This document shows, piece by piece, positions 8,072 to 37,966 of a stretch of DNA of 54,785 nucleotides. Within the stretch, counting starts at the first letter, position 1. Every line of letters starts with the position of its first letter. Source of the DNA: a virus. Its lineage: Duplodnaviria > Caudoviricetes. Made by a program: the position numbers and the translations under genes. Below the pieces are notes generated by a model, which saw nothing but the letters and a program-made list of their open reading frames with translations, searched no databases and was not told the origin of the DNA. Location of the stretch: positions 1 through 54,785 of the IMG/VR virus record IMGVR_UViG_3300044638_001221. The stretch is one strand, 5' to 3'.

Positions 8072-11000
8072 ATGGCAACATTCAACACCGCCGCAGCATT
8101 AAAAGCCGGATACACAGAACTCCAGATTGCAGAGTTCTTAGGGCAGCAAAATAAATTTAATACGGCGGCAGCGTTGCAAGCGGGGTATGCCCCCGCTGAC
8201 ATCATCAAACAGCTAAGTGGGCCCCCACCCACTACCATTGGTGGGCAGACTAAAGAATTCTTTAAAGGTATCCCATCGGGGGCGGTGGGTCTTCTCGAAA
8301 CTGCGGCTACTGGTGCGTCTGCTTTGTTGCCAGACGACATGGAAAAGTCTGCGCGCAAGACTATTTCTGAAACTGCCGCTGCTGCCAAAAAACCGTTTGA
8401 AGCCGCTAAAGGTTACGAAGATAGCATTCCACGTAGGCTCGGTGAAGGTGTTGGTTCTACCGCACCGTTCTTCTTGCTTGGCCCCGCAGGAGTAGCGGGT
8501 CGTGTGGCTGGCGCGGGGTTAGGTGTTGCCGCTGGTGCTGGCGAAGCCCGTCAAGAAGCTGAAGCCAAAGGTGCGACAGGTGACGAACGGATGTTTGCTA
8601 CCGCATTGGGTGCCCCAGTTGGCTTGCTTGACCTACTTGCACCACAAGTTAAAGCTGGCAAGAGCATGATTCTCAACGCGTTCAAACGCGGTGGTATGGA
8701 AGGTGCAACCGAAGCCGCGCAGAAAGTTGCTCAAAACTTAATTGCCAAAGGTCTATACGACCCAACGCGTAGTGCGTTGGAAGGGTCAGGCGAAGAAGGC
8801 GCATACGGCGCTGGCACTGGCGCAATCATTAGTTTCTTACTTGACGCTACCCTTGGCAAACGTGCAAAGAGTGGAAGTTCTGCGCCCGGTACTCCCTCTG
8901 GTGAAGCCCCACAAGGTGATGCAGAACAGCAAGCCAAACGCGTTGCCCGAGAGCAAGAGCAGATGGGTGTTAAGCAAGGGCGCGAAGCCCGTGCAGGTGA
9001 GAAGTTGCTTAATATTGACGAGCGGGAAGCCGCCAAAGCAGAAGCTCTTGCACAGAAAGACCGCCTTGCTGCGATGGACCGCCTCAATGCAGAGGCACGC
9101 GCCGTACGCGAAGCTGACTTAAAAGCAGCGTTCCCCGCAGATTACAGCGATGTAATGCAGCGTGCAGACAACTACGTTGAACTGAGCAAAGAGCTAGATG
9201 CGATTGGCAGTTCCCAAACCAAAGAAGCCAAAGCACGCCGTGCGCAACTCCAAGCGCGGATGCAGGGGATTGTGGAAGAAGATACTCGTGTGGTACGTGA
9301 AGTTTCCCGCATCCAGCAAGACCAAGCCCGCTTGGCTAAACAGGCTGGGTTCCCAGCACAAAAGTCTGCCAAAGCATTTGAAGCCGCGCCCCCGCAGATG
9401 GAGATGCGCGAAGCGATGCTTGAGCCGGGGCAAGTACTGCCACCACAGCTTGACTTGCAGGGAAACATCATTACACCAGAGGCACCTGTAGAGGAGCCTG
9501 TTAAACGTTTTCCCACATTTAAAAACGCAACAGACGCAGCGCGTGGCATGCAGCGTGGCGAGGCTGCACTAGCCAAAGAAGCCACAGCCCTACGCAAAGA
9601 ACAAGAAGCCGCTGGGCAGATGACGCTTGCACCACGCGTTGAACCAAAGGTAACAGAGCAGCCAGTTCCTGAGCCAGTCAAGGTTGAGAAGCCCGTTGCG
9701 CTTACGCCTGACACTGTGCCCACCACCGTCACGCCCGACGTTTTGGGTGCCTTGGGTATTGGACGCACGGCAATTATTCGTAAGCCTGACCACGGCATCA
9801 TGGGTAAAGATATTACTGACCCCGCCCAAGCCGCTGAAGTTAAGTCCATCCTTACAGCCTACCGCCAAGGCCGTAGCGCACCCATACAGGAAAAAATAGA
9901 TGCATACCTTGCGCGACCAGAATTCCAAGCCGCCGCGCCTACCGAGAATATTGCAGAAGGAGAGACAAATGCTGGACAAACTGAGCCGCCCCCAGATCGA
10001 ACTGGCGTTCAACTACCTGACCAAACCGTTCAAGGAAAGCCCCCCAGACGAACTCTCAAAATTAAACGAGATGGAGTGGTTTCTCCTGAGCCGGATGTTG
10101 GACAGCCTGCTGTCGGAGAAGCTGAACAGCCCGCTCCAGTAGAAGAAGCCCCTGCCGAAACACCTGCCGAAACACCTGCCGAAACACCTGCCGAAACACC
10201 TGCCGAAACACCTGCCGAAACACCTGCCGAAACACCTGCCGCGCCTAAGAAGCCGATGGGCATGTTCGACCAGTTGGTAAAACCAGAGACTGCCGAAAAA
10301 GGTAAGGGTGAGAAAGCCGCACCTGAACCCACGGTGGAAGAAGAGGCCATCGGTGTAGCACAAGTTAAGTTTGACCCTTGGGACCCCAACAGCTACAGGG
10401 GGATGTGGAAAGACCTTGAGAAAGAAAACGGGCGTAGTCCGGGGGAAGCCCTGCAAGATTTGTTGGATGCAAGGCACGCAGACCAGTTGGGCAAGCGTAC
10501 TATCGGGGCTAAAACCAAGAGCATAAAAAAATCTGTAGACGAGCAGTCTCCAGCAGAAGAAGCTGTACGCGTAGAAGCTGTTACCGCTGCGGTTAAGACC
10601 CTGACGGGTGCTGACAAGATGGTGCTGGCAAAGCACTACAAGCAACCAAAGTTTAACAAAGCTGCCGAAACATCATTCATCAACGATACCATTAAGGCGA
10701 TTACTGACGGCATTGAGTCCGTCTCTAAGGCAATCCACAAGTACGTTCGCAAGGCCATGTCCGGCATGCTGTCTGTGGCTATGGTTATCAACCCACAGTT
10801 TATGAGTTTGCCAGAGGCTGCGCTAATCACCAGCCCTGCCACATACGTAGTTGAGCAGGCGGTTACAGCCACCGTGCCCGCAGATGCCGCTAAGTTCATG
10901 TCGCCTGCCGCCCAGACTGCGTACGCAACAATACTGCCCGCGCTCAAAGCTGACTTAAAATCACGCAATAAGTTGTTCTTGATGCACGACAAACCCTCGG

Positions 11001-14000
11001 CACAGACGTTTGTCTTTACGCCTGACGGGAAGATGTTGATGCACCAAAAGACTTTGCAGGGCAAGGCTGTAGGAGATTTGTACAAAGGTGACAACGACAT
11101 CCCCGCAAACCGCGTCACCCCTGCTGGGCTGTTTAACTGGGAAAAACGTGTTGGTGGTAAGACCGCCAGTGATTATGACTTCAACACCGTATTCGGTATC
11201 AACGACGGCGAAGCATTTATCACCCTGATGCACTCGGTATGGACAAAAGAAACTGATGCAGCCCAACGACTGAAAGCGCTTAACAACGACTCAGCGTCTG
11301 ACTCCCGCTATTCGTTTGGCTGTATCAACTTTTCCAAAAGCGCGTTCAAAGAAATACTCGACAAGTACCAAGACCAGATAGATGGCGCAAAGATGTTTAT
11401 CGTGCCTGATAACCAAGCACGGGTAAAAGACTTCATTAACGGTGACATAGCCAAGAACATAGTGCGCGAAGATAAACTCTTGCGCCAGTCAGTTGAACCT
11501 GTAACTGAGAAAATTACCAAGACCACATCAGGCGCTAAAGCAGCAGCCAACGCCTTACAACGTGCGGTGTACGGCAAGCCAGAAGACTCTGTGCTGGATA
11601 AGCCAGCCGCAGAAGTCACCACTGCCAACAAGGCCAGCGCCTTGGAAGCTGCGCTCCAAGCAAAGGTAGCAGAGGGTGATGTGCGCGGTGCCTTGCAATC
11701 AATTATTAACGCAGATGCGGCTCTCTATAACGCTGTTGACCGCTTGATTGCCAAACGCCTGCTTCTGTCTGGCAGTCTGCCTAGCGTGGAGATTGTGGGC
11801 GAAGGCACGTTGGGTATGGACGGCGACAAAATTGTGGCGGGTCAGTACGATGCTGTAACCGACAAAGTACGGTTGGTCGATGGGTATATTGGTGCCCACA
11901 CACTTTTGCACGAGTTAGTCCACGGCTTCTTGCACCGCGCCGTCAGTGCCCACGAAGGTGGTCAGATTAACAACGCTGGTGTACGCAACTTGCGGGAACT
12001 CTACGACTACGTAGCGGAACAAAACCCTGCTTTGCTTAAAGAGTACGGCATGGTGAACCTCAGCGAGTTTGCGTCTGAGGCGATGTCTAACAAGGATTTC
12101 CAAGAAGCCCTGCAAAAAATTCCATACCGCAGACAAAGCGTGTTTACTTGGTTTGCTAATGCTGTACTGAAAGCATTGGGTGTCTCAAGCACCGACCAGC
12201 ACACCGCCCTTGCTGCCGCTTTGATTTCTGCTGAGAGCGTTATGTCTGAAGGCCGTGCCTTGCAGATGTCAGAATTTGGTAAGCCCGTTCAAGGTACGTT
12301 GCCCGGTGTGGCAAATGTCGCAGTTGGGTTTACACAGCAAGACTACGACGAAGCAAATCGTATTGCCAATAGCCTTGGGCCAGCGGCAGCACCTGCAATG
12401 GGTGGGTTGATTAACACCAGTTTGAAGGCTATGAACCGCGCTTCAGAACAGTCTGGGTTGTTTACCACCTTGCGTCAAGCGTTGGTTGACAAGTACGCGT
12501 CTGTTGAATCCAAAGTGTCCAACAAGTTTTCTCAGGGCGTACGGGATTTCTTTGGCAACTTAAACCCTATGGTTCTGGTACGCCAAGCAGAAGACCACGC
12601 CAAAATATTTATGAGTTTCTTGTCCGATGGCGGCATTAAATTCAGCAAAGATGGTTTAGTAGAAACCTTCAAGCAAAAAGGTTCGGCTGTAGAGGCGCTG
12701 TCTGAAATAAACCAATTTGGTAAAGACAGCGGGCTTGGGTTTGAAAAAGCCAAAGAGTATGTGTCCAGCGTGCTGGAAGGTCACCGCGCTTTTGATATCC
12801 AAGAGAACCACAACAAGCCGTTGGAATCGTCTGCCCTTTCGTTAGAACAGCAAGGTAAGAACAAAGAAGCTGATGCTGAACGCGCCAAGAAAATCAAGCT
12901 GCACCTGACTGCGGAAGACATTGCTACGCTAGAAGCAAAGTACCAAAAGACTCCTGCAATAAAGAAGATACAAGATACGTTCAATGAAACCCGTGGGCAT
13001 GCAATTGACTTGCTGGCTGCGTCAGGTCGCATCTCCAAAGAGACGGCTGATGATTGGAAAGCTAACTCTGCTTACGTGCCGTTTGACCGTGTGATGGAAG
13101 ACATTGGCGTTAACCTGTTGCCACGCGGCAAGGGGCTTGGTGTGATGACCAAGACACCAGAGATTAAAGGTTCGCTTGACCGCCGTGTTAAAGATGTTGT
13201 TGACTCTTACATGGGCACGCTTGGCTGGATGGTTGAAGAAGCCATGCGCCACAACGCCTCTACCAAGTTGTTAAACGAGATGCAGTTGGCAGGGTTTGCA
13301 GATAAGCACCCAGTAATTACTGCGGCTAAGAACCCCAACCTTGTGGTTCGCCTGTACGAGAATGGCAAGCCCACGTTCTACGAAGTCCAGAACGAATACG
13401 ACTTGCTGGCGTTCAAGCAAGCGCCAGAGGTAAACAACTTGTTGATTAACGGCCTAGCCGCTACATCTAGGATTTTGCGAGTCAGCGTGACTGCCATGCC
13501 ACCGTTTGCCGTGAAACAGGTTATTGAAGATGCGACTCGTGCCGCTATGTACTCTGGCGTACAGCGTCCACTAGTTGTGGCAATGAAGACCTTGTACAAC
13601 ATGCCACGCATTTTCTTCGGCGAAATAACTGGGCGCAAGTCCCCTGCCGCCAAGCGCATGGAAGAACTTGGGATTGTGGGCGACTACGATTTCAACATCT
13701 ACCAACCCACCAGCGAAATTGAAAAACAAATCGGCGCTAAGAAGCGTGGTATGGGCGGTACGCTTTTCCATACTCTTGAGAAGTTCACCAAGGCATCGGA
13801 CCTTGCAGGTCGTATGGCCGTGTACGAAGAGACGATGCGTGAGTCTGGTGGTGACGAAGTGCTGGCACAAACCCGCGCACGCGAGTTAATTAACTTCCAA
13901 CGCCGTGGCTCCAGTGAATCAATGCGGGTAGCGACTCGGGTAATTCCGTTCTTTAACGCTTACGCGCAAGGTATGGACGTGCTGTACCGCGCTGCATCGG

Positions 14001-14998
14001 GTATTGATTCATCATCCTCTATAGAACGTGGGGCTGCGCGGCGGTTGTTTATGGGTCGCGTTGCCATGATGACTGCAATGGGCTTTGCCTACGCGCTGGC
14101 TATGTCTGACGACGAGGGCTACAAGAACGCTACGGACGAGGTGCGTGACAACAATTGGCTGCTGCCCAACGGCTACAAGCTGCCAAACCCCAAAGAATTG
14201 GGCTTTATCTATAAAGTTATCCCAGAGCGTATTGTCGAGTACTACCGCCGTAGCGGCACGCCAGAAGAGCAAAGCGCATTGGATGCGTTGAGTGGTGTAG
14301 TTAAAGCCGCTTACTCTGCGTACTCATCGCCTACCACGGTGCCGTCGTATGTTCGCCCAATCTTGGAGAACATGACCAACTACTCGTTCTTCTTGCAACG
14401 CGAGTTGGAATCCGCCAGCCTGCAAGGTAAGGTACCGGGTCAACGCTATACATCTACCACTTCGGAATTGGCAAAGGGTATAGGCGAAGCAGCCAACATA
14501 TCGCCAATCAAGATAGACAATTTGTTCAAGGGTATGTTTGGTATGGCAGGGTCAACCACCTTGCTGGCAACAGACGCTATGCTTAACCCAACGCGCCCTG
14601 ACCGCCCCATCTACCAACTACCGTTTGGCAGTATCTTTACCTACGACACAATTGGTGGGCGTAACAAGACTGAGTTCTACGATTTGCGTGAACGCGTATC
14701 TCAAGCGGATGCTACGTTTAAAGATTTGTTGCAGCACGACCCCGCCAAGGCAGAGAAGTTCTTAGAGAAAAACGAATCGCTTATCGCTATGGCACCGCTA
14801 GTCAATAAGAGTTTGAAAGAGCTTAGTGAAATGCGCAAGGTCCGCACTGCGATTGAGCAAGGCACCGAAGAGCAGCTTGGCGTTGACAGCGCAGAGCGCC
14901 GCAGGCTGATTGACGAACTGCGGGGTTACGAAAACGACTCGGTCAGCTTCGTGCGCGAACTTGAGAAACAGATGCGTGACATGGAATTGATGGAATAA
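8072..14998 (+). CDS. Giant internal virion/polyvalent protein (LDT-like domain, zincin metallopeptidase, LPD38-like C-terminus)
   Basis: 2308 aa. Gly/Ala hydrophobic N-terminal region; TPAG..MHS..SFGCIN (~10960-11410); HELVH..EFASE zincin (~11909-12080); INFQRRG..IPFFNA..QG and C-terminal YDLR typical of large ejection proteins. Confidence 0.75.
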   Translation: MATFNTAAALKAGYTELQIAEFLGQQNKFNTAAALQAGYAPADIIKQLSGPPPTTIGGQTKEFFKGIPSGAVGLLETAATGASALLPDDMEKSARKTISETAAAAKKPFEAAKGYEDSIPRRLGEGVGSTAPFFLLGPAGVAGRVAGAGLGVAAGAGEARQEAEAKGATGDERMFATALGAPVGLLDLLAPQVKAGKSMILNAFKRGGMEGATEAAQKVAQNLIAKGLYDPTRSALEGSGEEGAYGAGTGAIISFLLDATLGKRAKSGSSAPGTPSGEAPQGDAEQQAKRVAREQEQMGVKQGREARAGEKLLNIDEREAAKAEALAQKDRLAAMDRLNAEARAVREADLKAAFPADYSDVMQRADNYVELSKELDAIGSSQTKEAKARRAQLQARMQGIVEEDTRVVREVSRIQQDQARLAKQAGFPAQKSAKAFEAAPPQMEMREAMLEPGQVLPPQLDLQGNIITPEAPVEEPVKRFPTFKNATDAARGMQRGEAALAKEATALRKEQEAAGQMTLAPRVEPKVTEQPVPEPVKVEKPVALTPDTVPTTVTPDVLGALGIGRTAIIRKPDHGIMGKDITDPAQAAEVKSILTAYRQGRSAPIQEKIDAYLARPEFQAAAPTENIAEGETNAGQTEPPPDRTGVQLPDQTVQGKPPRRTLKIKRDGVVSPEPDVGQPAVGEAEQPAPVEEAPAETPAETPAETPAETPAETPAETPAETPAAPKKPMGMFDQLVKPETAEKGKGEKAAPEPTVEEEAIGVAQVKFDPWDPNSYRGMWKDLEKENGRSPGEALQDLLDARHADQLGKRTIGAKTKSIKKSVDEQSPAEEAVRVEAVTAAVKTLTGADKMVLAKHYKQPKFNKAAETSFINDTIKAITDGIESVSKAIHKYVRKAMSGMLSVAMVINPQFMSLPEAALITSPATYVVEQAVTATVPADAAKFMSPAAQTAYATILPALKADLKSRNKLFLMHDKPSAQTFVFTPDGKMLMHQKTLQGKAVGDLYKGDNDIPANRVTPAGLFNWEKRVGGKTASDYDFNTVFGINDGEAFITLMHSVWTKETDAAQRLKALNNDSASDSRYSFGCINFSKSAFKEILDKYQDQIDGAKMFIVPDNQARVKDFINGDIAKNIVREDKLLRQSVEPVTEKITKTTSGAKAAANALQRAVYGKPEDSVLDKPAAEVTTANKASALEAALQAKVAEGDVRGALQSIINADAALYNAVDRLIAKRLLLSGSLPSVEIVGEGTLGMDGDKIVAGQYDAVTDKVRLVDGYIGAHTLLHELVHGFLHRAVSAHEGGQINNAGVRNLRELYDYVAEQNPALLKEYGMVNLSEFASEAMSNKDFQEALQKIPYRRQSVFTWFANAVLKALGVSSTDQHTALAAALISAESVMSEGRALQMSEFGKPVQGTLPGVANVAVGFTQQDYDEANRIANSLGPAAAPAMGGLINTSLKAMNRASEQSGLFTTLRQALVDKYASVESKVSNKFSQGVRDFFGNLNPMVLVRQAEDHAKIFMSFLSDGGIKFSKDGLVETFKQKGSAVEALSEINQFGKDSGLGFEKAKEYVSSVLEGHRAFDIQENHNKPLESSALSLEQQGKNKEADAERAKKIKLHLTAEDIATLEAKYQKTPAIKKIQDTFNETRGHAIDLLAASGRISKETADDWKANSAYVPFDRVMEDIGVNLLPRGKGLGVMTKTPEIKGSLDRRVKDVVDSYMGTLGWMVEEAMRHNASTKLLNEMQLAGFADKHPVITAAKNPNLVVRLYENGKPTFYEVQNEYDLLAFKQAPEVNNLLINGLAATSRILRVSVTAMPPFAVKQVIEDATRAAMYSGVQRPLVVAMKTLYNMPRIFFGEITGRKSPAAKRMEELGIVGDYDFNIYQPTSEIEKQIGAKKRGMGGTLFHTLEKFTKASDLAGRMAVYEETMRESGGDEVLAQTRARELINFQRRGSSESMRVATRVIPFFNAYAQGMDVLYRAASGIDSSSSIERGAARRLFMGRVAMMTAMGFAYALAMSDDEGYKNATDEVRDNNWLLPNGYKLPNPKELGFIYKVIPERIVEYYRRSGTPEEQSALDALSGVVKAAYSAYSSPTTVPSYVRPILENMTNYSFFLQRELESASLQGKVPGQRYTSTTSELAKGIGEAANISPIKIDNLFKGMFGMAGSTTLLATDAMLNPTRPDRPIYQLPFGSIFTYDTIGGRNKTEFYDLRERVSQADATFKDLLQHDPAKAEKFLEKNESLIAMAPLVNKSLKELSEMRKVRTAIEQGTEEQLGVDSAERRRLIDELRGYENDSVSFVRELEKQMRDMELME
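9969..10142 (+). CDS. Probable nested (overprinted) 57-aa gene inside the giant protein
   Basis: AAGGAG at 9957-9962, 6 nt before the ATG. Product MLDKLSRPQIELAFNYL...EWFLLSRMLDSLLSEKLNSPLQ is amphipathic-helical, while the host frame here is a low-complexity linker. Confidence 0.55.
   Translation: MLDKLSRPQIELAFNYLTKPFKESPPDELSKLNEMEWFLLSRMLDSLLSEKLNSPLQ
10151..10240 (+). repeat. Perfect 12-bp tandem repeat CCTGCCGAAACA x7.5 (PAET linker)
   Basis: Directly visible; in frame. Confidence 0.97.
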
Positions 14999-31656: not shown

Positions 31657-32751
31657 TCAGTGGGTTGGTTGATATAAACGGTCGAACAAGTCAGTCAATA
31701 CAGCATGTGTATCGAAGCACTCCAGCATGTCTTCTGCATCTTTCAATACCTTCTTGGTGAGTTTCTTTTTGTTCAAGAACTTGAACGCGAACTCGGGGTC
31801 TTGGGGGTAGCACGCATCACCAATCAGATAGAACAAGTCATCGGTCAGGCCGAACCCAGCGTCAGTCATGGCGTCAAAGAGCATTTCTTTATCCATGTCT
31901 AGGTCTGCGTCTGACCATGCGATGGCTGATTGCTGCCAGTTTCCTGTCCACGCTTTCGGGGCGTAGCACTTGTCGTCCACCTCGCCAGCTTTCCTACTAG
32001 TAGGAAGTTTGTCCCACGGCACATTCAGTACCGTCTTAGCCAGCGCTTCGTAGTGGAAGATGTTCAACGACTCTTTGTCGGTATGCTCTCGCTCATAGCC
32101 CACGCTGATGTTGGTGCATTCGGGTATGTAGTTGATGAACTCTGCCGTGTCGGTATACACACCTGTGTCGTCAGGCGAATACATGAAGTCAGGGTGGCTG
32201 TTCAACGCATCGCTCAACGCTTGTGCAAACGCATCACTACAACACCTGCCCCACCCTTGGTGCGAGATGACGCTGTCAATGCCCCTGCGGTCAAACGCAA
32301 TCGCCCTGTCGAACTCACCCAGTAACGCGCTGTGGTTCTCAGATAGGTAGGCCGCACCTATGCCGCCGCACTCTTCACCTTGTGTGAATACATAGTAGCC
32401 AGCAACATTGGCATGCAGCATATGCATCAGCATCGCACAACCCGCGCCATCGTCCGCACCCAGCGGTGCGCCATCTGCGTACCACATGTTCTTGGTCTTA
32501 CGCATCTTGTTCGGGCCATCCTCACGATGCACCGTGTCCACATGGGCAACGAATAGCGTACGGCTTGCTGCGTCATGCCTGTTGTCCACATGCAGGTTGC
32601 CCGCACCGTCTACCCATATGCGTTCGTTCACGCGTTCAGGCACAGCATTGGCAAGCCACTCGGTAAAGTACGCAACAGCCTTACCCTTATGCCCACGCTT
32701 GATAGACAAGGCACGGCACAGAGTTACATACAACATAGATTTCTTATTCAT
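31657..32751 (-). CDS. Zn-dependent peptidase, M28/M20-like
   Basis: AHVDTV, LGADDGAG, GEECG, AFDRRG, YTD, NISVGY..EH metal ligands. Confidence 0.85.
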   Translation of the reverse strand: MNKKSMLYVTLCRALSIKRGHKGKAVAYFTEWLANAVPERVNERIWVDGAGNLHVDNRHDAASRTLFVAHVDTVHREDGPNKMRKTKNMWYADGAPLGADDGAGCAMLMHMLHANVAGYYVFTQGEECGGIGAAYLSENHSALLGEFDRAIAFDRRGIDSVISHQGWGRCCSDAFAQALSDALNSHPDFMYSPDDTGVYTDTAEFINYIPECTNISVGYEREHTDKESLNIFHYEALAKTVLNVPWDKLPTSRKAGEVDDKCYAPKAWTGNWQQSAIAWSDADLDMDKEMLFDAMTDAGFGLTDDLFYLIGDACYPQDPEFAFKFLNKKKLTKKVLKDAEDMLECFDTHAVLTDLFDRLYQPTH

Positions 32752-32798
32752 ACATTCTTTCCAGTTTCGGTTAAGTTAAAGTTTCCTACAAGTAGGAA

Positions 32799-34181
32799 TT
32801 ATTCGGTAGTCTCAGGCGCTTCATCGGGGTGATACTTATCGCCATCTACCTCAACACATTCGGTATGGAAGTACCAATTGTCAGTCGCCGTACATTGCCA
32901 GCAGTCGTCTTTGAGTTTCGACTCACCATCGGTATCTTCAGGGGCACACACATCGTCATCGTCATGGTCATACCACACGCCATCGACACACACGGCATCG
33001 TCTATGTGTATGACCATATCTTCTTCATCGTGCAGGTACACCATGTTGTTGTCCGCAAGGTGGCTGCGGTGGTAGTAGTTGCCATCCCCATCTTCAACCG
33101 AATACTCGTTGTCGAAGTAGTAGGTGTTGCCGTTCCGCCCGTCACCGCTGACATAGTTGTCGTGAAGGCAGTTCTCGCACACATGGCGGTCTTCGTGATA
33201 GCCCACCCAGTACCCATCGCCATCGCTGACACTGTCGCCACAGTCCTCACACTGTTGCCCATCATCTACGGGTGACGCACTGCCGCCTGTCGAGTTGCAC
33301 TCAAACTCAGGGTCATCCTCTGTAATCCGCAAGTACCCCTCGCTGCGGTTCACGACCACGCCCTTTGTATCGCCGTCAATGTACGGGGCAAGGAAGTCGT
33401 CACCCGATGCTGCGAGGTACCGCAGCTTCTCGCCATTGTTGTACGCGCTCTGTTTGTCATAGCCCTGCTCAACCAGCCATGCTTCGAGCATCTCGTCTGA
33501 GGGTGAGTACCCAGCGGTCGCCTTGTACGAGCGCACCCAGTACTTGCCACGCTTGCCGTCTATGCACAACGCACGCCCTACTGTCTGCCCACCCTCGATA
33601 CGCACAGCCATGTGCCATCCATACTTGGGGTCATAGCATGAGTACGGGTGGCTGTCGTAGTCCGCATCTTCTTCTTTGTAGCTGTCCCACACCATGCACG
33701 ACTTCGGCCCCCGATGCAGGTGTCCAATCATGTCGTCTGTGGTGTAGACAAACTTACACCCTGTCGCCCCGTGCGCCGCAACCAAGTCACGAATGGCGTG
33801 GTCAGGCAGGTTGGAGAAGTGCATGCGCAGGTACTTGCCCAAAGATGTAATAGTCTGCAAGTTAGACTCACCCTTGCGCTCGTTCTGTGTGTACGCCAGC
33901 CTAGTGGGGTCTGTGTCTGCGCTATGCGGCCATTGCAGCAGCAACTCTTGCCAGTCGTTGGGTCGTGACATACGCATGGCTTTGCGTACTGCGGGGTGCA
34001 GGTTCGCGCTGTACTGCTCACGCCTGTGCCACTCACGCCCAAGCTGCACCTCTTGCTGCTCCCACCCATTGTTGGCGCTCGGCGGTATCGTCTGCCACCA
34101 GCCAGCCAAGATGCGGGCACTTGTGTCAAAGATGTTTTCCATGTCATCGGCGTTGTAGCCTGCTTCGGTATATGTTGCCAT
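32799..34181 (-). CDS. Early protein with an SCM/GRAL domain and acidic Cys-rich C-terminal repeats
   Basis: GKYL, GPKSCM, GRAL, APYID, CEDC..CENC. GAGG SD before MATYTE. Confidence 0.7.
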   Translation of the reverse strand: MATYTEAGYNADDMENIFDTSARILAGWWQTIPPSANNGWEQQEVQLGREWHRREQYSANLHPAVRKAMRMSRPNDWQELLLQWPHSADTDPTRLAYTQNERKGESNLQTITSLGKYLRMHFSNLPDHAIRDLVAAHGATGCKFVYTTDDMIGHLHRGPKSCMVWDSYKEEDADYDSHPYSCYDPKYGWHMAVRIEGGQTVGRALCIDGKRGKYWVRSYKATAGYSPSDEMLEAWLVEQGYDKQSAYNNGEKLRYLAASGDDFLAPYIDGDTKGVVVNRSEGYLRITEDDPEFECNSTGGSASPVDDGQQCEDCGDSVSDGDGYWVGYHEDRHVCENCLHDNYVSGDGRNGNTYYFDNEYSVEDGDGNYYHRSHLADNNMVYLHDEEDMVIHIDDAVCVDGVWYDHDDDDVCAPEDTDGESKLKDDCWQCTATDNWYFHTECVEVDGDKYHPDEAPETTE

Positions 34182-34256
34182 ACCATACCTCTTTCTAGTT
34201 ACAGATACCCTGTGAGTCGGCACAGGGCAAACCGTTTTTCCTACAGGTAGGAATTT

Positions 34257-34469
34257 CTAAGTCCTCTTTGGATTCAATTGTTTAAGTACTTCCATGTCTG
34301 TTACGAGCAAGTAATTACTTTTGTTCATAGGCACTATTGTATGCTTATGTTTGGCTGCTGTCAACTCACCGCATGACATGCATGTGCGATACCCTAGTGC
34401 GTATCGTGCAGGTGGTATGCGTTCCACATAGCATGTCAGGCAGGTGTAGTTGTGGTAGTGCGCCATCAT
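34257..34469 (-). CDS. Small C4 zinc-finger protein (DksA/TraR-finger-like)
   Basis: CLTC..IPPAR..LGY.TCMSCGE..P..KSNY. Confidence 0.65.
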   Translation of the reverse strand: MMAHYHNYTCLTCYVERIPPARYALGYRTCMSCGELTAAKHKHTIVPMNKSNYLLVTDMEVLKQLNPKRT

Positions 34470-34627
34470 CTCTCCACGAGTTCTTCAACGATGGACAAGA
34501 GCAGCCATCCACCCATCCAGCCCGCACCCATGCAGAACAGCTTGGCAAACAGTCCTTCGGTCGTCAGCCCAAGGAACAGACAGGCGCACATAAGCACCGC
34601 CATAATGAGTACTTGTAATCTAGTCAT
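34466..34627 (-). CDS. Small two-TM membrane protein (53 aa)
   Basis: Read by hand: MTRLQVLIMAVLMCACLFLGLTTEGLFAKLFCMGAGWMGGWLLLSIVEELVER*. ATGA overlaps on both sides. Confidence 0.6.
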   Translation of the reverse strand: MTRLQVLIMAVLMCACLFLGLTTEGLFAKLFCMGAGWMGGWLLLSIVEELVER

Positions 34628-34878
34628 TTCAGTAACCCCTTCTCAAACATACGCTCCAGCATTGCGCTGTGAATAACTGAATAGCCCAAGTCCTTGCCCT
34701 TGGTTTCCATCCACTCCATCTCTTGCTCGGGGCTCAGTCCGAACGCCCCTGCGTTGCAACAGCACCAATGGATAGCAACATTGAAGTCAGCAGCCGAGTC
34801 GAACCATGTGCCATCGGGTGCAACGCACCCATAAAAAATGTCTTGGATGGTGCGCTTAAATTCTTTCCATGTAGTCAT
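34624..34878 (-). CDS. Hypothetical protein
   Basis: Coupled early ORF. Confidence 0.55.
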   Translation of the reverse strand: MTTWKEFKRTIQDIFYGCVAPDGTWFDSAADFNVAIHWCCCNAGAFGLSPEQEMEWMETKGKDLGYSVIHSAMLERMFEKGLLK

Positions 34879-35102
34879 TTGCTTTTCCCTTTCTTTTCAA
34901 ATGTGCCAAGCCATTGTGTGCCTTCGACTTGGGGTTGATACCTCTTGATGTCGTAGTCTTCGGTGTGGGGTAGCGGCACAAGGTAGAGGTTGTAAGTCTC
35001 GCCTTCTTTGTCCATCAGTTGCAGTAGCTGACGCAGGTCGCGGGTTGCGTTGGTCGTCATCCATGTGTACACGCTTGATGCGTAGAAGTGGAAGTCGGTC
35101 AT
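34875..35102 (-). CDS. Hypothetical protein
   Basis: Coupled early ORF; Y.I..YQPQVEG. Confidence 0.6.
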   Translation of the reverse strand: MTDFHFYASSVYTWMTTNATRDLRQLLQLMDKEGETYNLYLVPLPHTEDYDIKRYQPQVEGTQWLGTFEKKGKSK

Positions 35103-35284
35103 TTCACTACCCCTTTTTCGCTGATAAATAAATATTCTTCTGGTTCTTGCTCGCGTAGTTCTACTAGCTCTTCGAGGTAGCGGGTTATTTCGATACGCAA
35201 ATACTCAGGCAGGGTTTCCCACATGGATTCGGTTTTGCCATCACTCCACTTGAAGTTAAGCGTACAGTTTGTTACGGTTTTCAT
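35099..35284 (-). CDS. Hypothetical protein
   Basis: First ORF after the long leader; AAAGG SD. Confidence 0.6.
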   Translation of the reverse strand: MKTVTNCTLNFKWSDGKTESMWETLPEYLRIEITRYLEELVELREQEPEEYLFISEKGVVK

Positions 35285-35324
35285 ATATACCTTTCAGTTT
35301 CGAAATTTCCTACAGGTAGGAAGT

Positions 35325-35868
35325 AGTGCGGTATGCACCCACAAGCCCACAGAATGAGCTTGCAGTTGTCTACAACTTGTTAAACGACATAGTGTCCAGC
35401 CACTATGCGCATCGTCTTCGTTTGGTTTGATTCGCATCCACGATAGGTCTTGTCGTTCGCACATCTCCCCTTGTTACAGGGCTTGCGTTCCGCTTGGTTG
35501 GGGGTCATTGCATAGGCGCGGCGAATCATCAGGGCGGGTGTGCCCCAGTAATAGATAGTTGATTGCCGTTAGCTATGCACCACAGGCGATGCCTGCTGTT
35601 GTCTCATCCAATAGGGGTGCGCGATGCACCCCGACCATTTAAGTGGTAAGTACTTTTTATGACCTCTGTTACCAAGGTCATACGCCGACTGCCTACGGCA
35701 CGCCTTGTCGCACAGGAAGTATTCTCACAGACAGTTTCTCTTTGCTTGGCATAAAGCCATTCGTTGACAGTCTGATTCCTACTATGTGCTTCTCGTATAC
35801 ATTACTTCCGAGCGGCGGGTATTCCAAGCCATTGTTGGTGGCTTGTGGTAAACATGTTATTAAAGAAC
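35325..35868 (-). ncRNA. Candidate large structured non-coding RNA or long early leader
   Basis: More than 10 hairpins or long-range stems, two GUAACA loops, no credible ORF, downstream of a consensus promoter, bracketed by two palindromes. Confidence 0.55.
35857..35868 (-). promoter_or_regulatory. boxA-like antitermination element
   Basis: GTTCTTTAATAA on the - strand (consensus GCTCTTTAACAA), followed by a CAAGCCA/TGGCTTG hairpin. Confidence 0.5.
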
Positions 35869-35933
35869 TTCCTACTGGTAGGAGATTTTCCTACACTTGG
35901 GAAACCACGATGGATTTCCACTTATTAAGACAT

Positions 35934-35962
35934 AGTATAACACAACTAGAGCGTATTGTCAA
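35934..35962 (-). promoter_or_regulatory. Strong sigma70 early promoter
   Basis: TTGACA-17-TATACT with an extended TG. Confidence 0.8.
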
Positions 35963-36004
35963 GTCAGAACAAGTGGAAACAAGCGGCGAATATATCAAAC
36001 AATA

Positions 36005-36505
36005 CTACCGCATACGGGTTATCTCAAGGGCGTTCTCGTTGCCTATGCGCTTGCTCTTGAAGCGTTTACCATCTACCTTCTTGTTGTAGTAGGAAATCAT
36101 GGACTGTATGTTGTGCGCCAGCGCATCAGGTACGATGAACGACTCTCTGTATTTAAGTTCTTTCAAGCGGGTCTTTGCGTCCACACTTGCGCGTATCAAA
36201 TCCTTGCCCTTGTGCTGGTCGCGCATGGCGTGTGCCAGTAGCTGAGTTTTGTTCTCTGCCACATCGTTGATAAATGTTGCGCTTGTATTTATGCGGCGGT
36301 CGATGGCTTTGTTCACCATGACTGCATCTATCGTGGCGGTTGGCAGTTCCATGTCATCCAGCCCATCGAACAAATCCGCATACTTGGTGGTGGCAAGTGC
36401 AGACAGCTTGCGGTTGGGTTCGGGCAGAACGCCGCTCATCTTGTGCGGGTTGCGTTCCGATGTGGGTGCGTTAAACATGGTGTTGAAGTCGTTGAGTAGT
36501 GACAT
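36005..36505 (-). CDS. Hypothetical early protein
   Basis: AAGGA SD; 166 aa. Confidence 0.6.
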   Translation of the reverse strand: MSLLNDFNTMFNAPTSERNPHKMSGVLPEPNRKLSALATTKYADLFDGLDDMELPTATIDAVMVNKAIDRRINTSATFINDVAENKTQLLAHAMRDQHKGKDLIRASVDAKTRLKELKYRESFIVPDALAHNIQSMISYYNKKVDGKRFKSKRIGNENALEITRMR

Positions 36506-37016
36506 GGTGTTCCTTGTGTTCTGTGTTCCAATCAGATTATGCGTGTACTCAGAGGGGAAGTCAATAGGAACGATGTGGTAAAAGATAATGGAAGTGTGTA
36601 GATGGTAATGGAAGATAGCAAATTAGGTGTTTTTGTTCCATGTGTACGCAAAAGTCTGGTTTTTGAAAATAAAACCTAGCCGTATTTCCGAACATGCTGC
36701 GCCTAACCGAACGAACAGAAAACCCACAAAAAATAGAAGTTCCTACCAGTAGGAAAAATTCCCAGCCCCAAACCCACAAAACCAAAGAAACGAGAACACA
36801 CTACTAACTAATAATAATATATATCTATATCTCTCTCTCTCTCATGTGCTATTCTTGATTGGTTGCTACTAAACGATATCAAACAGCATGTTCTGATAGC
36901 GACCAAGAACTTTTGTGTACAGGCGTGGTTGCTTAGAACATAGAACGCATGGTTGCATGGGTGCTTTGGCGTGGTTGCTACGGCGTAGACCCCACCAGTT
37001 CTCTACCAGTTCCCAG

Positions 37017-37084
37017 AAAAAAAAATAAAAAACCCGCATGGCGCAAACCAAGCGGGCAAGAAAAAACCCCTCTTGCGAGGGGTT
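37017..37084 (-). terminator. Two tandem rho-independent terminators
   Basis: AACCCCTC-GCAA-GAGGGGTT plus U-tract, then CCCGC..GCGGG plus U-tract on the - strand. Confidence 0.8.
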
Positions 37085-37110
37085 CTGAAAAATCCTACAG
37101 GTAGGAAAAT

Positions 37111-37581
37111 TTATTCTTTGATTTCGTACCCTTCCGATTCAAGGTAGGCTTGGATAATTTCGGACAATGTGCCCTCATCATTTTGAAATGCGGTTTCAAA
37201 GTCTGACACTAAACCCGCAAAATCTTTGTGAGAAAAGAGCTTCGCAAGTAACGCGTGTACTTCGCTTGGCGCTTTGTCTTTCCCGCCTTTGGCTTTGCCC
37301 TTGGATGCACTAAAAGAAAATGGCGTGCCCTCGTTAACTGCAGCGACAATGGCGGTCATATAGTTAGCCACAGTCTTTGCCGATACACCTTTGAATGTAG
37401 CTTTCATTGCGTCTTGTAATGTTGCACGGTTAACGCAAGTCTTGACAGACTTACCAAATTTCAAGCCCGCCTTTTTGCAGTCAGTGATTTTGGTGTTTAT
37501 CACTTCCAAAGCATTGTGCCCACTATGCACTGCAGCGACAATGGATTTAATTGTGCCGATTGAATCGAATGATGTAGTCAT
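37111..37581 (-). CDS. Monocistronic immediate-early protein
   Basis: 156 aa, own promoter and terminators, AGGGG SD. Confidence 0.7.
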   Translation of the reverse strand: MTTSFDSIGTIKSIVAAVHSGHNALEVINTKITDCKKAGLKFGKSVKTCVNRATLQDAMKATFKGVSAKTVANYMTAIVAAVNEGTPFSFSASKGKAKGGKDKAPSEVHALLAKLFSHKDFAGLVSDFETAFQNDEGTLSEIIQAYLESEGYEIKE

Positions 37582-37643
37582 AAAATACCCCTAAAGTTAC
37601 TAGGTATCGGTAGAGATAAAACACTCTTTGAACCGATAAATGC

Positions 37644-37672
37644 ATTATGCGCCCTTTTAATCACTTTGTCAA
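37644..37672 (-). promoter_or_regulatory. Sigma70 promoter
   Basis: TTGACA-17-CATAAT on the - strand. Confidence 0.75.
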
Positions 37673-37966
37673 GCGTTATATATTCTTTCCTACAGGTAGG
37701 AAAAACGCCCCTACGCCATCGACTTGCGCCACCAGTTCCCCCCACCCGCCCCCCACCGTCCCGCTATGTGTTAGGAGTCCCGTGGCTGCTATACACTGTA
37801 TTACAGTCAAACGATGTCCAGTTAATTTCAAATCGACCCCCCACCCCCCTTCTTTTTCCGGCAAGATTACATTTATTTTTACTTACAGGAAACCCCCCCA
37901 CGTTCCGGAACGTACCCCCTTCAATATTTTTTAACTGGTTCTATTATTTTTTGGTATAGTACGCCC

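What the first reader, a model, noticed from the sequence alone, without database searches (positions are those of the whole stretch)
35325..35962. Candidate large (~550-600 nt) structured ncRNA transcribed first from a strong early promoter
Seen: a near-consensus promoter (35934-35962), then a palindrome, a boxA-like element and ~550 nt without a credible ORF in a genome that is otherwise nearly gap-free. The interval is packed with stems: CAAGCCA/TGGCTTG; long-range GGAAGTA/TACTTCC (35715-35809) enclosing CAGAC/GTCTG and TGGC/GCCA; TATGACCT/AGGTCATA; GGGGTGC/GCACCCC; CAGGC/GCCTG; TGCATAG/CTATGCA enclosing CGGC.AATCA/TGATT.GCCG and GGGC/GCCC; CATAGTG/CACTATG. Two hairpin loops carry the same GUAACA (35472-35477, 35667-35672), suggesting tertiary contacts. 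Established: phages encode large structured RNAs of this size (ROOL, GOLLD) and antiterminator RNAs (HK022 put). I cannot assign this one to a known class. With the flanking palindromes and the monocistronic 156-aa gene, it is the best candidate here for an undescribed RNA-protein system.
Basis: partly seen in the sequence, partly recalled or inferred. Interest (0 to 1): 0.78.

Follow-up and report, generated by a model that had tools for sequence, protein, structure and literature searches.

The report
Large structured phage leader RNA
A roughly 640-base untranslated stretch at the head of a phage's early genes belongs to a conserved, intricately folded RNA family that matches no catalogued RNA and carries the same short signal that bacteria use to keep transcribing their ribosomal RNA.

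Summary
Window 35285-36004 (- strand) has no credible ORF. It is more than chance. The MFE z-score is -3.4 (0 of 120 shuffles as low), against +0.7 to -2.0 for ten coding controls. About 37 distinct homologues exist in uncultured viral and metagenome contigs, always behind the same kind of promoter. Several helices keep pairing while their sequence changes completely: 8 of 8 pairs compensatory in one hairpin, 80 of 80 cells paired in another, and 3 of 4 pairs compensatory in the most conserved hairpin. All six reading frames carry stops. Rfam 15 gives no match.

It is not a free-standing gene. No terminator separates it from the next gene, so it is the 415-757-nt 5' leader of the main early operon. 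At +31 to +80 it carries a match to the boxA consensus GYTCTTTAANA. In one relative, 26 of 27 bases match the E. coli rrn leader.

Best reading: a cis-acting leader with an rrn-type Nus/boxA antitermination module joined to a large new structured domain whose partner is unknown. The link to the 156-aa gene is synteny only.

The parts
35934..35962 (-). Promoter: -35 TTGACA (35962-35957), 17-nt spacer with TG, -10 TATACT (35939-35934). Predicted start near 35927.
   Evidence: An equivalent TTGAC-N16-19-TAnAnT lies 200-270 nt upstream of the conserved block in most homologues.
35285..35927 (-). Predicted untranslated leader RNA, 643 nt, from the inferred start to the base before the ATG of the 61-aa gene.
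   Evidence: The start site is inferred from the promoter and was not observed.
35900..35919 (-). H1, 5'-proximal hairpin GGAAAUC/GGUUUCC with loop CAUCGU. Relatives keep a hairpin with an AUCG-type loop on different stems.
35869..35884 (-). 5' copy of the lineage-specific palindrome (C)UCCUAC-CA-GUAGGAA. An imperfect copy lies at 35902-35889.
35858..35868 (-). boxA, GUUCUUUAAUA: a perfect match to GYTCTTTAANA, at about +60 of the predicted transcript.
   Evidence: The relative L105 matches the E. coli rrn leader here.
35825..35845 (-). H3, a hairpin 12-14 nt after boxA (CAAGCCA/UGGCUUG, loop CCAACAA), in the position of a boxB.
   Evidence: at least 10 unrelated stem sequences in relatives, with loops close to CUNACAA.
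35792..35818 (-). Conserved CCGCCGCU followed by hairpin H4 (CUCG...CGAG).
   Evidence: 20 distinct hairpins, 80 of 80 cells paired, 5 G.U pairs.
35728..35774 (-). Insertion hairpin (CAGAC...GUCUG enclosing UGGC/GCCA), present only in the window's closest relatives.
35684..35704 (-). Most conserved block, GGCGUGCCGUAGGCAGUCGGC: a 4-bp stem (35699-35696 with 35687-35684) closing the 8-nt loop UAGNCAGU.
   Evidence: Three of the 4 stem pairs change on both sides in L118 and L119.
35658..35682 (-). P hairpin, an 8-bp stem with the conserved loop UGGUAACAG.
   Evidence: 8 of 8 pairs compensatory, 144 of 144 cells paired. Also.
35509..35632 (-). Middle domain: GGGGUGC/GCACCCC hairpin with conserved flanks CUUAAAUGG and CCCCUAUUG, the CAGGC/GCCUG hairpin, and the UGCAUAG/CUAUGCA multi-stem arm.
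   Evidence: The inner part of the arm is missing in L059.
35441..35469 (-). Conserved 3' module GGGAGAUGUGCGAACGACAAGACCUAUCG, shared with distant subgroups.
35325..35407 (-). 3' hairpins: CAUAGUG/CACUAUG (35407-35388), Hy CAAGCUCA/UGGGCUUG (35362-35342), Hz GGUGC/GCACU (35339-35325).
35307..35322 (-). 3' copy of the palindrome, UUCCUAC-CU-GUAGGAA. It is 86% complementary over 22 nt to the 5' copy.
   Evidence: (I3)
35282..35295 (-). Ribosome-binding site GAAAGG (35295-35290) and ATG (35284-35282) of the 61-aa gene, preceded by the conserved UCGAAACUGAAAGG.

Best explanation
The interval is the long 5' untranslated leader (about 643 nt here, 415-757 nt in relatives) of the main early operon of an uncultured tailed phage. 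It belongs to a structured-RNA family that is absent from Rfam 15. Proposed mechanism, with what is shown and what is inferred marked. The host sigma-70 RNA polymerase starts at the near-consensus promoter (inferred from sequence). The first ~100 nt of the nascent RNA present one or two hairpins, an rrn-type boxA and a further hairpin with a conserved loop (shown in sequence and by conservation). This module recruits host NusB/S10 and the other Nus factors, so the polymerase becomes resistant to Rho and proceeds through several hundred untranslated bases into the early genes (inferred by analogy with rrn leaders and lambdoid nut sites). Downstream lies a conserved core: CCGCCGCU, hairpin H4, a variable arm, then GGCGU, the stem-loop with loop UAGNCAGU and the P hairpin, followed by further hairpins joined by CA-rich linkers. 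This core is under selection as RNA structure (shown by covariation). It most likely serves as the docking surface for an unidentified protein or RNA partner that modulates early expression (inferred; partner unknown). A pair of lineage-specific palindromes flanks the core. They are probably sites for a phage-encoded dimeric regulator (inferred).
For: Family and conservation. The 21-nt block was found in 14 viral, 48 metagenome and 5 genome stretches. After inspecting the flanks of all 67 loci plus the window, 53 rows share promoter, flanks and hairpins. They give 35 distinct 201-nt cores and 28 distinct full leaders of 415-757 nt. A scan with a different conserved module added two further distinct members whose block differs.

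RNA structure. P hairpin: 12 sequences, 8 of 8 pairs changed on both sides, 144 of 144 cells paired, against 31-45% when the partner is slid; covariation score reached by 0 of 500 shuffles. H4: 20 distinct hairpins, 80 of 80 cells paired. Block stem: 3 of 4 pairs compensatory, 40 of 40 cells paired, 2 of 500 shuffles as high. H3 has at least 10 unrelated stems at a fixed place. G.U pairs support the promoter strand: 5 in H4, 3 cells in P, and many in the 142-pair consensus of the window's subgroup.

Folding energy. z = -3.37 against +0.71 to -1.98 in 10 coding controls.

Non-coding. Each of the six frames has stops in 29-35 of 35 members. Cross-group 'peptide' similarity is equal on both strands and in several frames.

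Leader, not a separate gene. No terminator-like site lies on the - strand between 35935 and 35285. A conserved ribosome-binding region follows directly.

boxA. The consensus GYTCTTTAANA comes from passages of PMC5725501. It is matched perfectly in 18 of 28 distinct leaders and with one mismatch in 10 of 28, always at +31 to +80. The part of the same leaders downstream of the block has no match with at most one mismatch, 0 of 28. L105 matches the E. coli rrn leader in 26 of 27 bases, a median of 7 places per genome in 5426 of 5426 genomes, upstream of 16S.

Context. The first gene after the leader differs between relatives while the leader is kept. This argues against a gene-specific sensor.
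Against: No transcript was observed; start, end and stability are all inferred. The only RNA-library contigs found are short pieces of relatives, and one spans the promoter. The host is unknown, and the boxA consensus was derived for gamma-proteobacteria. Ten of 28 leaders differ at boxA position 5, and whether that is tolerated is not known. No enterobacterial boxC (UCUGUGUGGG, at most 2 mismatches) lies in the leader. Antitermination needs only some tens of nucleotides, so this reading does not explain why 300-600 nt of conserved structure follow. Few intrinsic terminators are predicted downstream: 3 sites in 6 kb against 6.7 expected. Rho sites cannot be predicted. The element is single-copy in 4 of 4 complete 64-66-kb genomes, unlike the paired nut or put sites of lambdoid phages. 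Only 2 of 42 related loci found through the 474-aa protein carry it, so relatives do without it.
Confidence: 0.5

Rival explanations
1. A stand-alone trans-acting non-coding RNA cut out of the leader. The two flanking palindrome copies pair into a ~20-bp leader-trailer stem, as around 16S rRNA. A double-strand-specific RNase cuts the stem and releases a stable ~550-nt structured RNA that acts on a host or phage target. On this reading boxA is there only to get the long untranslated RNA transcribed.
For: The two copies are 86% complementary over 22 nt (I3), and RNAalifold pairs them as the closing helix of the whole domain. By my motif list, 21 of 28 distinct leaders have two or more copies of their own palindrome flanking the core. 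By eye, the members without those motifs carry other paired palindromes, for example in L049 and L093. Both copies change together between lineages. The rrn-like boxA fits an rRNA-like way of making a structured RNA. The leader is conserved while the gene behind it varies.
Against: Each palindrome can also fold on itself, and co-transcriptional folding favours that. The same palindrome occurs at 8 perfect sites across 31992-37701, including upstream of the first early promoter and inside the peptidase gene, which suits a DNA-binding protein better. In one subgroup the second copy sits mid-leader, 200-336 nt after the block, leaving the 3' module outside. Three leaders (L048, L050, L073) have only the 5' copy. 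No processed RNA has been seen.
Confidence: 0.2
2. A sensing riboregulator. The conserved core binds a small molecule, a tRNA or another cellular RNA, and switches transcription or translation of the early genes, as riboswitches and T-box leaders do.
For: It sits in a 5' UTR, and its loops and junction nucleotides stay fixed on covarying stems, as in aptamers. Three short words occur in the same order as in the specificity domain of bacterial RNase P RNA, which docks the tRNA elbow: ACCGCCG, GUGAAAnGG and a hairpin capped by GUAA. They were seen by aligning E. coli rnpB and five other RNase P RNAs. The role of that domain is recalled, not tested.
Against: No riboswitch, T-box or RNase P model matches. 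The rnpB similarity is at chance level: 21.1 bits against 16.8-24.0 for 20 shuffles. My model R1 hits only the UGGUAACAG loop of E. coli P14, at E = 0.61, and nothing in the RNase P RNA of the other 5 genomes. The downstream genes vary. No alternative terminator or anti-terminator, and no structure hiding the ribosome-binding site, was found.
Confidence: 0.1
3. A DNA-level element: an origin of replication or early-region control region. On this reading the palindromes are operators and the hairpins matter as DNA, not as RNA.
For: The region is ORF-free and dense in palindromes. The palindromes change by lineage, as operators of a co-evolving protein would. The antisense strand folds as well by MFE, z = -3.79.
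Against: The element always has the same orientation and distance relative to a strong promoter and to the ribosome-binding site of the next gene. G.U pairs in covarying helices would be A.C mismatches on the other strand. boxA acts in RNA. Compensatory changes in many separate short hairpins have no known role in duplex DNA. The composition profile shows no clear skew switch at the site.
Confidence: 0.07
4. A decayed or unusually coded protein gene, or a cluster of small ORFs.
For: Sense ORFs of 39-56 aa exist in the window. One relative has an open 174-aa frame across the block.
Against: Stops occur in all six frames in 29-35 of 35 members. The 174-aa frame is an accidental upstream extension of a real downstream gene, and its first ~110 residues are low-complexity. 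Indels between close relatives are not multiples of three. Translated similarity is the same on both strands.
Confidence: 0.02

Closest known systems
rrn operon leader antitermination elements (boxB-boxA-boxC; rrnTAC with NusA/B/E/G, SuhB, S4)
   Same: A boxA matching the consensus lies tens of nucleotides after a strong sigma-70 promoter, preceded by a hairpin and followed by a long structured untranslated RNA. In L105, 26 of 27 bases are identical to the E. coli rrn leader.
   Different: No boxC and no rRNA. The RNA behind it is a 300-600-nt domain of unknown function that runs into protein-coding genes. It is encoded by a phage.
Lambdoid phage nut sites (boxA plus boxB, bound by N and the Nus factors)
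   Same: A phage early-operon leader with boxA followed after 12-14 nt by a hairpin with a conserved loop on variable stems. The loop, close to CUGACAA, recalls the GACAA loop of P22 boxB. That comparison is from memory and was not tested.
   Different: No N-like arginine-rich protein was recognised among the neighbours. There is one copy per genome, not two. It is an order of magnitude longer.
HK022 put RNAs (RNA-only processive antiterminators)
   Same: A structured RNA just downstream of an early promoter that could act in cis on the transcribing polymerase.
   Different: put is about 70 nt with two stem-loops, occurs in two copies and needs no boxA (recalled). Here there is one copy, boxA is present, and the length is 415-757 nt. 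No sequence or structure comparison was possible.
E. coli suhB 5' UTR boxA (Nus-factor autoregulation)
   Same: A boxA in the leader of protein-coding genes rather than of rRNA (passages of PMC5725501).
   Different: There the outcome is repression by blocked translation followed by Rho termination, in a short UTR. Direction of control here is unknown.
Large ornate phage- or bacteria-associated RNAs (GOLLD, ROOL, OLE, raiA)
   Same: The size class is 400-800 nt. It has many covarying hairpins, invariant loops and modular insertions and deletions, and occurs in phage genomes.
   Different: No Rfam model matches. Those RNAs are free-standing genes, often near tRNAs; this one is a promoter-proximal leader with boxA.

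Membership tests
boxA / Nus-dependent antitermination site (rrn or nut type) | Sequence matching the boxA consensus GYTCTTTAANA | tested here: met
   Window GTTCTTTAATA at 35868-35858, 0 mismatches. 18 of 28 distinct leaders are perfect and 10 of 28 have one mismatch. The parts of the same leaders downstream of the block have no match with at most one mismatch, 0 of 28.
boxA / Nus-dependent antitermination site (rrn or nut type) | Lies in the nascent RNA shortly after the promoter, next to a hairpin (boxB) | tested here: met
   It lies at +31 to +80 of the predicted transcripts. Hairpins stand before it (H1, palindrome) and 12-14 nt after it (H3). The start site is inferred, not observed.
boxA / Nus-dependent antitermination site (rrn or nut type) | boxC (UCUGUGUGGG) about 18-19 nt downstream of boxA, as in Enterobacteriaceae rrn leaders | tested here: not met
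   No match with at most 2 mismatches inside 35285-35927. The window total of 60 is at chance level, 55 expected. The motif was taken from passages of PMC10250234.
boxA / Nus-dependent antitermination site (rrn or nut type) | Binds NusB-S10 and makes RNA polymerase termination-resistant | not testable with these tools
   Needs binding and read-through assays.
Any Rfam 15 family (including GOLLD, ROOL, riboswitches, T-box) | Covariance-model match at or near the gathering score | tested here: not met
   0 matches at gathering score in the whole window. In the interval at E up to 10, only mir-1789 at E = 1.4. In 12 relatives' loci, only Ysr197 at 26 bits against a 167-bit cut-off, on the boxA stretch of L105, and anti-hemB outside the leader.
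Bacterial RNase P RNA (specificity domain) | Match to RF00010, or significant similarity to real RNase P RNAs | tested here: not met
   RF00010 on the window gave 0 candidates. blastn of rnpB against 28 leaders gave a best score of 21.1 bits, within the shuffled range of 16.8-24.0. R1 against 6 RNase P loci hit only the E. coli P14 loop, E = 0.61.
tRNA, tmRNA, 5S rRNA | Detected by ARAGORN or RF00001 | tested here: not met
   ARAGORN found 0 genes in the window. RF00001 found 0 matches.
HK022 put-type RNA antiterminator | Two copies, one after each early promoter; a two-stem-loop RNA of about 70 nt | tested here: not met
   One R1 match per genome in 4 of 4 complete genomes. Length is 415-757 nt. 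The defining features are recalled, and no put model was available for direct comparison.

The most novel reading that the evidence does not exclude
The family is a new class of large phage RNA made the way the cell makes rRNA. A strong promoter and an rrn-type boxA load the host's ribosomal antitermination and RNA-chaperone complex. The complex transcribes and helps fold a 350-600-nt ornate RNA. Flanking palindromes pair into a leader-trailer stem, and the RNA is released to act as a ribonucleoprotein scaffold or decoy on a conserved host machine. On this reading the conserved GGCGU and the UAGNCAGU loop (only its N varies) are the contact surface.
Probability: 0.2. Interest if true: 0.85.

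Novelty: new variant of a known kind. Interest (0 to 1): 0.66.

Why it matters
boxA-dependent antitermination is known from rRNA operons, a few cellular genes and lambdoid phages. Large ornate RNAs are known from phages but have no known function. This family joins the two: a textbook host signal sits in front of an uncatalogued, strongly covarying RNA domain of several hundred nucleotides, at the head of the early operon of a group of uncultured phages. That gives a concrete experiment. Reporter fusions with boxA and core mutations in nus or rho backgrounds would ask what a large phage RNA does. The well-defined core, with about 37 distinct natural variants, is also a candidate for structure determination. 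If the core binds a host factor, it would be a new route by which phages take over transcription or RNA processing.

Tried and rejected
DNA search of isolate phages. The 901-nt interval gave no match. A 66-nt core query gave two chance hits. So no cultured phage in that collection holds the element.

Neighbouring proteins as handles. The 166-aa and 156-aa proteins gave no related viral loci. The 474-aa protein gave 42 loci, of which only 2 hold the element.

Gap analysis of those 42 loci. It was unreliable because spurious ORFs fill the gaps, and it is not used.

Expression. Two RNA runs held 6% of the sampled words each. Laid on the window they gave five short contig pieces of 85-99% likeness, one spanning the promoter. 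They give no starts, no ends and no evidence of expression, and no habitat is inferred.

tRNA or tmRNA, RNase P and 5S rRNA: not supported.

Complementarity of the block, the CCGCCGCU word and the 3' module to E. coli 16S, 23S and 5S rRNA. It lay within shuffled ranges; the best cases were 1, 6 and 7 of 100 shuffles as good, out of nine tests.

A kissing contact between the H3 loop (CUGAC) and the block loop (GUCAG). I considered it by eye and dropped it, because the variable base N does not covary with the H3 loops (sequences).

Long-range pairing CGCC:GGCG (CCGCCGCU with the start of the block). RNAalifold predicts it, but both sides never vary, so it is neither supported nor refuted.

L087 carries the exact block upstream of an excisionase-like HTH gene, without promoter or boxA. 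It is left out as doubtful.

The five bacterial-genome matches, and nine of the viral or metagenome matches, lie in GC-rich coding DNA without the flanks. They were dropped as chance.

Literature. No paper in the searched library prints the block or neighbouring strings. Two keyword searches found no description of such a leader. Pieces of this leader may be among them.

Full report
WHAT IS THERE. The window is one whole viral record of 54,785 bp, estimated 87% complete. On the - strand, the 166-aa gene (36005-36505) and the 61-aa gene (35099-35284) are separated by 720 bases without a credible ORF. The interval begins with TTGACA-17-TATACT and a TG extension at 35962-35934. The interval is not the first early transcription unit. 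Equally good promoter-like sites lie upstream on the same strand at 37672-37644 and 36564-36536, and another downstream at 34364-34336.

IS IT MORE THAN CHANCE? The tool's fold of 651 nt gave z = -2.21 with only 20 shuffles. With 120 dinucleotide-preserving shuffles of the 643-nt predicted leader I obtained z = -3.37, and none folded as well. Ten coding segments of the same length from this genome gave +0.71 to -1.98. The antisense strand scores the same (-3.79), so energy alone does not give the strand.

RELATIVES. DNA search of isolate phages found nothing. The 474-aa protein downstream led to 42 related viral loci. Two of them, L002 and L014, have a syntenic ORF-poor gap of 510-565 nt. Aligning the three showed islands of identity in otherwise diverged sequence. 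These are the promoter, a palindrome, a boxA-like word, a 21-nt block GGCGTGCCGTAGNCAGTCGGC, two 3' hairpins and the ribosome-binding region. Scanning for the block gave 14 viral, 48 metagenome and 5 bacterial-genome stretches. Inspecting the flanks of all 67 loci separated two sets. Fourteen matches lie in GC-rich coding DNA without any shared flank, and one more (L087) is doubtful; these were dropped. That leaves 52 loci plus the window that share everything else. They give 35 distinct 201-nt cores. There are 28 distinct complete leaders, 415-757 nt from the predicted start to the next ATG.

The block search selects for an unchanged block, so I scanned with a different conserved module, GAGATGYGYNAACGACAANNNCTATCG. 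It returned 5 viral contigs. Two were already known. Three (two distinct sequences) have the full architecture but altered block stems.

STRUCTURE IS SELECTED.
- The hairpin after the block (P) was aligned by MAFFT without reference to structure. In 12 sequences, 8 of 8 pairs change on both sides and 144 of 144 cells pair. With the partner slid by 1-3 columns, 31-45% pair. No shuffle of 500 reached the covariation score. Its loop UGGUAACAG is constant in one subgroup. Other subgroups replace it with a different cap or with a 60-95-nt arm bearing conserved UGGUGUAG...AGUAGUG...CCGAA...GAUAGCA words.
- The hairpin after CCGCCGCU (H4) has 20 distinct versions with 80 of 80 cells paired, including 5 G.U pairs.
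- In the block's own 4-bp stem, 3 of 4 pairs change on both sides in the independently found members (GCCG/CGGC becomes CCCG/CGGG or GUGG/CCAC). All 40 of 40 cells pair, and 2 of 500 shuffles score as high. The 5' GGCGU stays fixed, and so does the loop UAGNCAGU apart from its N.
- A hairpin 12-14 nt after boxA (H3) has at least ten unrelated stems and a loop close to CUNACAA.
- RNAalifold on the ten closest leaders predicts 142 pairs, many with G-C to G-U changes.
G.U pairs become A.C on the other strand, so the structure belongs to the strand that the promoter transcribes. Between subgroups whole hairpins are inserted or lost, for example the window's 47-nt CAGAC...GUCUG arm and the inner arm missing in L059. 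Such modular change is usual in large structured RNAs.

NOT CODING. Within 100 nt either side of the block, each of the six frames has stops in 29-35 of 35 distinct members. Translated similarity between subgroups is as strong on the antisense strand and in several frames. An open 174-aa frame in one relative is an accidental extension of the real downstream gene.

NOT A KNOWN RNA. Rfam 15 gives nothing at gathering score in the window. In the interval at E up to 10 it gives only a microRNA model at E = 1.4. In 12 relatives' loci it gives two sub-threshold hits. One is a Yersinia sRNA model on the boxA stretch of L105. ARAGORN finds no tRNA or tmRNA.

While reading the sequences I noticed three words in the same order as in the specificity domain of RNase P RNA: ACCGCCG, GUGAAAnGG and a GUAA-capped hairpin. 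I tested this against E. coli rnpB and five other RNase P RNAs fetched for the purpose. RF00010 finds no candidate in the window. blastn similarity equals that of shuffled rnpB. My model of block plus P hairpin hits only the E. coli P14 loop, at E = 0.61. The resemblance is therefore a lead at most. 5S rRNA is also excluded.

A LEADER WITH AN rrn-TYPE boxA. There is no terminator-like site on the - strand inside the interval. The last hairpins are followed directly by the conserved UCGAAACUGAAAGG and the start codon. So the RNA is the 5' leader of the operon unless it is processed.

At 35868-35858 the window reads GTTCTTTAATA. This is a perfect match to GYTCTTTAANA, the consensus derived for gamma-proteobacterial boxA (passages of PMC5725501). 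Among 28 distinct leaders, 18 match perfectly and 10 with one mismatch, always at position 5 and always at +31 to +80. The parts of the same leaders downstream of the block have no match with at most one mismatch. In L105 the stretch GCTCTTTAACAATTTATCAGAC and its neighbours match the E. coli rrn leader in 26 of 27 bases. Matches to this stretch were found in all 5426 E. coli genomes, at a median of 7 places each; the one place I inspected lies about 120 nt upstream of 16S rRNA.

In rrn operons the order is boxB, boxA, boxC just after the promoter, and boxA is necessary and sufficient to form the antitermination complex (passages of PMC10250234). Here hairpins stand on both sides of boxA. No enterobacterial boxC is present.

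CONTEXT. Where the contigs reach far enough, a homologue of the 156-aa protein lies 1.5-2.2 kb upstream. A 70-aa zinc-finger protein (weak DksA-like match, E = 0.007), the 474-aa protein and an M28/M20-like peptidase lie downstream. The first gene after the leader differs between relatives. The element occurs once in each of four complete 64-66-kb genomes. It is absent from 40 of 42 loci found through the 474-aa protein. The block is found in no isolate phage. In 185,579 species' genomes the exact block occurs only at chance sites, so no prophage copies turned up. The nearest isolates by large terminase are phage DSL-LC04 and Pelagibacter phage HTVC023P, at about 46% identity. The host is unknown.

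THE PALINDROMES. TCCTAC-NN-GTAGGA occurs 8 times perfectly between 31992 and 37701, against 1.0 expected. It lies mostly at gene boundaries, once upstream of the first early promoter and once inside the peptidase gene. Two copies flank the structured core. In relatives the flanking pair is kept but its sequence differs by lineage: TTCATAC-C-GTATGAA, TCATACA..TATGA, TCCCAC-T-GTGGGA, TCTAAT-ATTAGA. My motif list found pairs in 21 of 28 distinct leaders; others were seen by eye. As RNA hairpins they are weak, -3.3 to -6.8 kcal/mol. A phage-encoded dimeric DNA-binding regulator is the simplest reading. Pairing of the two copies into a ~20-bp stem is the alternative: the window's pair is 86% complementary over 22 nt, and RNAalifold predicts this pairing as the closing helix for its subgroup. 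That alternative underlies the processed-RNA rival.

HOW IT MOST LIKELY WORKS. Shown: a conserved, covarying, non-coding RNA structure directly downstream of a strong promoter, with a boxA consensus at a fixed early position. Inferred: Nus factors bind boxA and protect the polymerase from Rho over several hundred untranslated bases with CA-rich single-stranded linkers, which would otherwise be good Rho substrates. The conserved core recruits an unknown partner. This reading does not explain the size of the core, and that is its main weakness. I give it 0.5. The rivals are a processed trans-acting RNA (0.2), a sensing riboregulator (0.1), a DNA-level element (0.07) and coding (0.02). The rest is left open.

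NOVELTY. The boxA module is a known kind. The domain behind it has no counterpart in Rfam, and none turned up in the papers I could search. I class it as a new variant of a known kind. The bolder reading, a new class of rRNA-style phage RNA, gets 0.2.

Noticed in passing
window 31992-37701 (sites at 31992, 32784, 34239, 35308, 35870, 36741, 37093, 37688): There are eight perfect copies of the palindrome TCCTAC-NN-GTAGGA, usually TTCCTAC..GTAGGAA, against 1.0 expected. They are confined to the early region. Most lie at gene boundaries, one lies 15 nt upstream of the -35 of the first early promoter, and one lies inside the peptidase gene. Relatives carry different palindromes at the same places. 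They look like operators of a lineage-specific dimeric regulator, or like recombination or shuffling sites that bound variable early gene cassettes.
   Followed up: partly
L076, L096, L059, L057, L091 (alignment columns about 595-630 of A6): In some close relatives, a copy of the palindrome with about 15 nt of flank on each side is inserted into the loop of the 3' hairpin Hy. This suggests the palindrome unit is mobile or recombinogenic.
   Followed up: no
window 36506-37110: A second ORF-poor gap of about 600 nt lies between the 156-aa and 166-aa genes. It holds a clear hairpin plus T-run directly after the 156-aa gene (CCCCTCGCAAGAGGGG then TTTTTT, about 37080-37055, - strand), which the scan did not list. 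It also holds two palindrome copies, a promoter-like site at 36564-36536 and a 17-nt direct repeat at 36578-36614.
   Followed up: no
window 34257-34469 (-): A 70-aa four-cysteine protein gives a weak match to DksA-like zinc-finger proteins (phrog_54, E = 0.007). It is conserved downstream of the leader in most relatives. TraR/DksA-like phage proteins are reported to reprogram host transcription, including of rRNA promoters (search listing of PMC9239242 only). That would be interesting next to an rrn-like leader.
   Followed up: no
L087 469-489: An exact copy of the 21-nt block, followed by a hairpin, lies about 135 nt upstream of an excisionase-like HTH gene in an unrelated contig. There is no promoter, boxA or other family feature. 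R1 scores it at E = 4e-5. It is either chance or a distant use of the same hairpin.
   Followed up: partly
window 32799-34223 (-): The 474-aa protein has an acidic, cysteine- and aspartate-rich C-terminal half and no Pfam or PHROG family. It is conserved in 42 viral loci at 36-49% identity, and the only isolate-phage match is a weak one in Rhizobium phage Pasto.
   Followed up: no
window 8072-14998 (+): A single 2308-aa ORF, the largest in the record. It was not examined.
   Followed up: no
L051, L055, L099, L105, L118, L119 (arm after the block): In one subgroup the P hairpin is replaced by a 60-95-nt arm with conserved AGUA and GAA words facing each other. These resemble a loop-E or bulged-G motif (recalled, not tested), a common protein-binding platform.
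   Followed up: no
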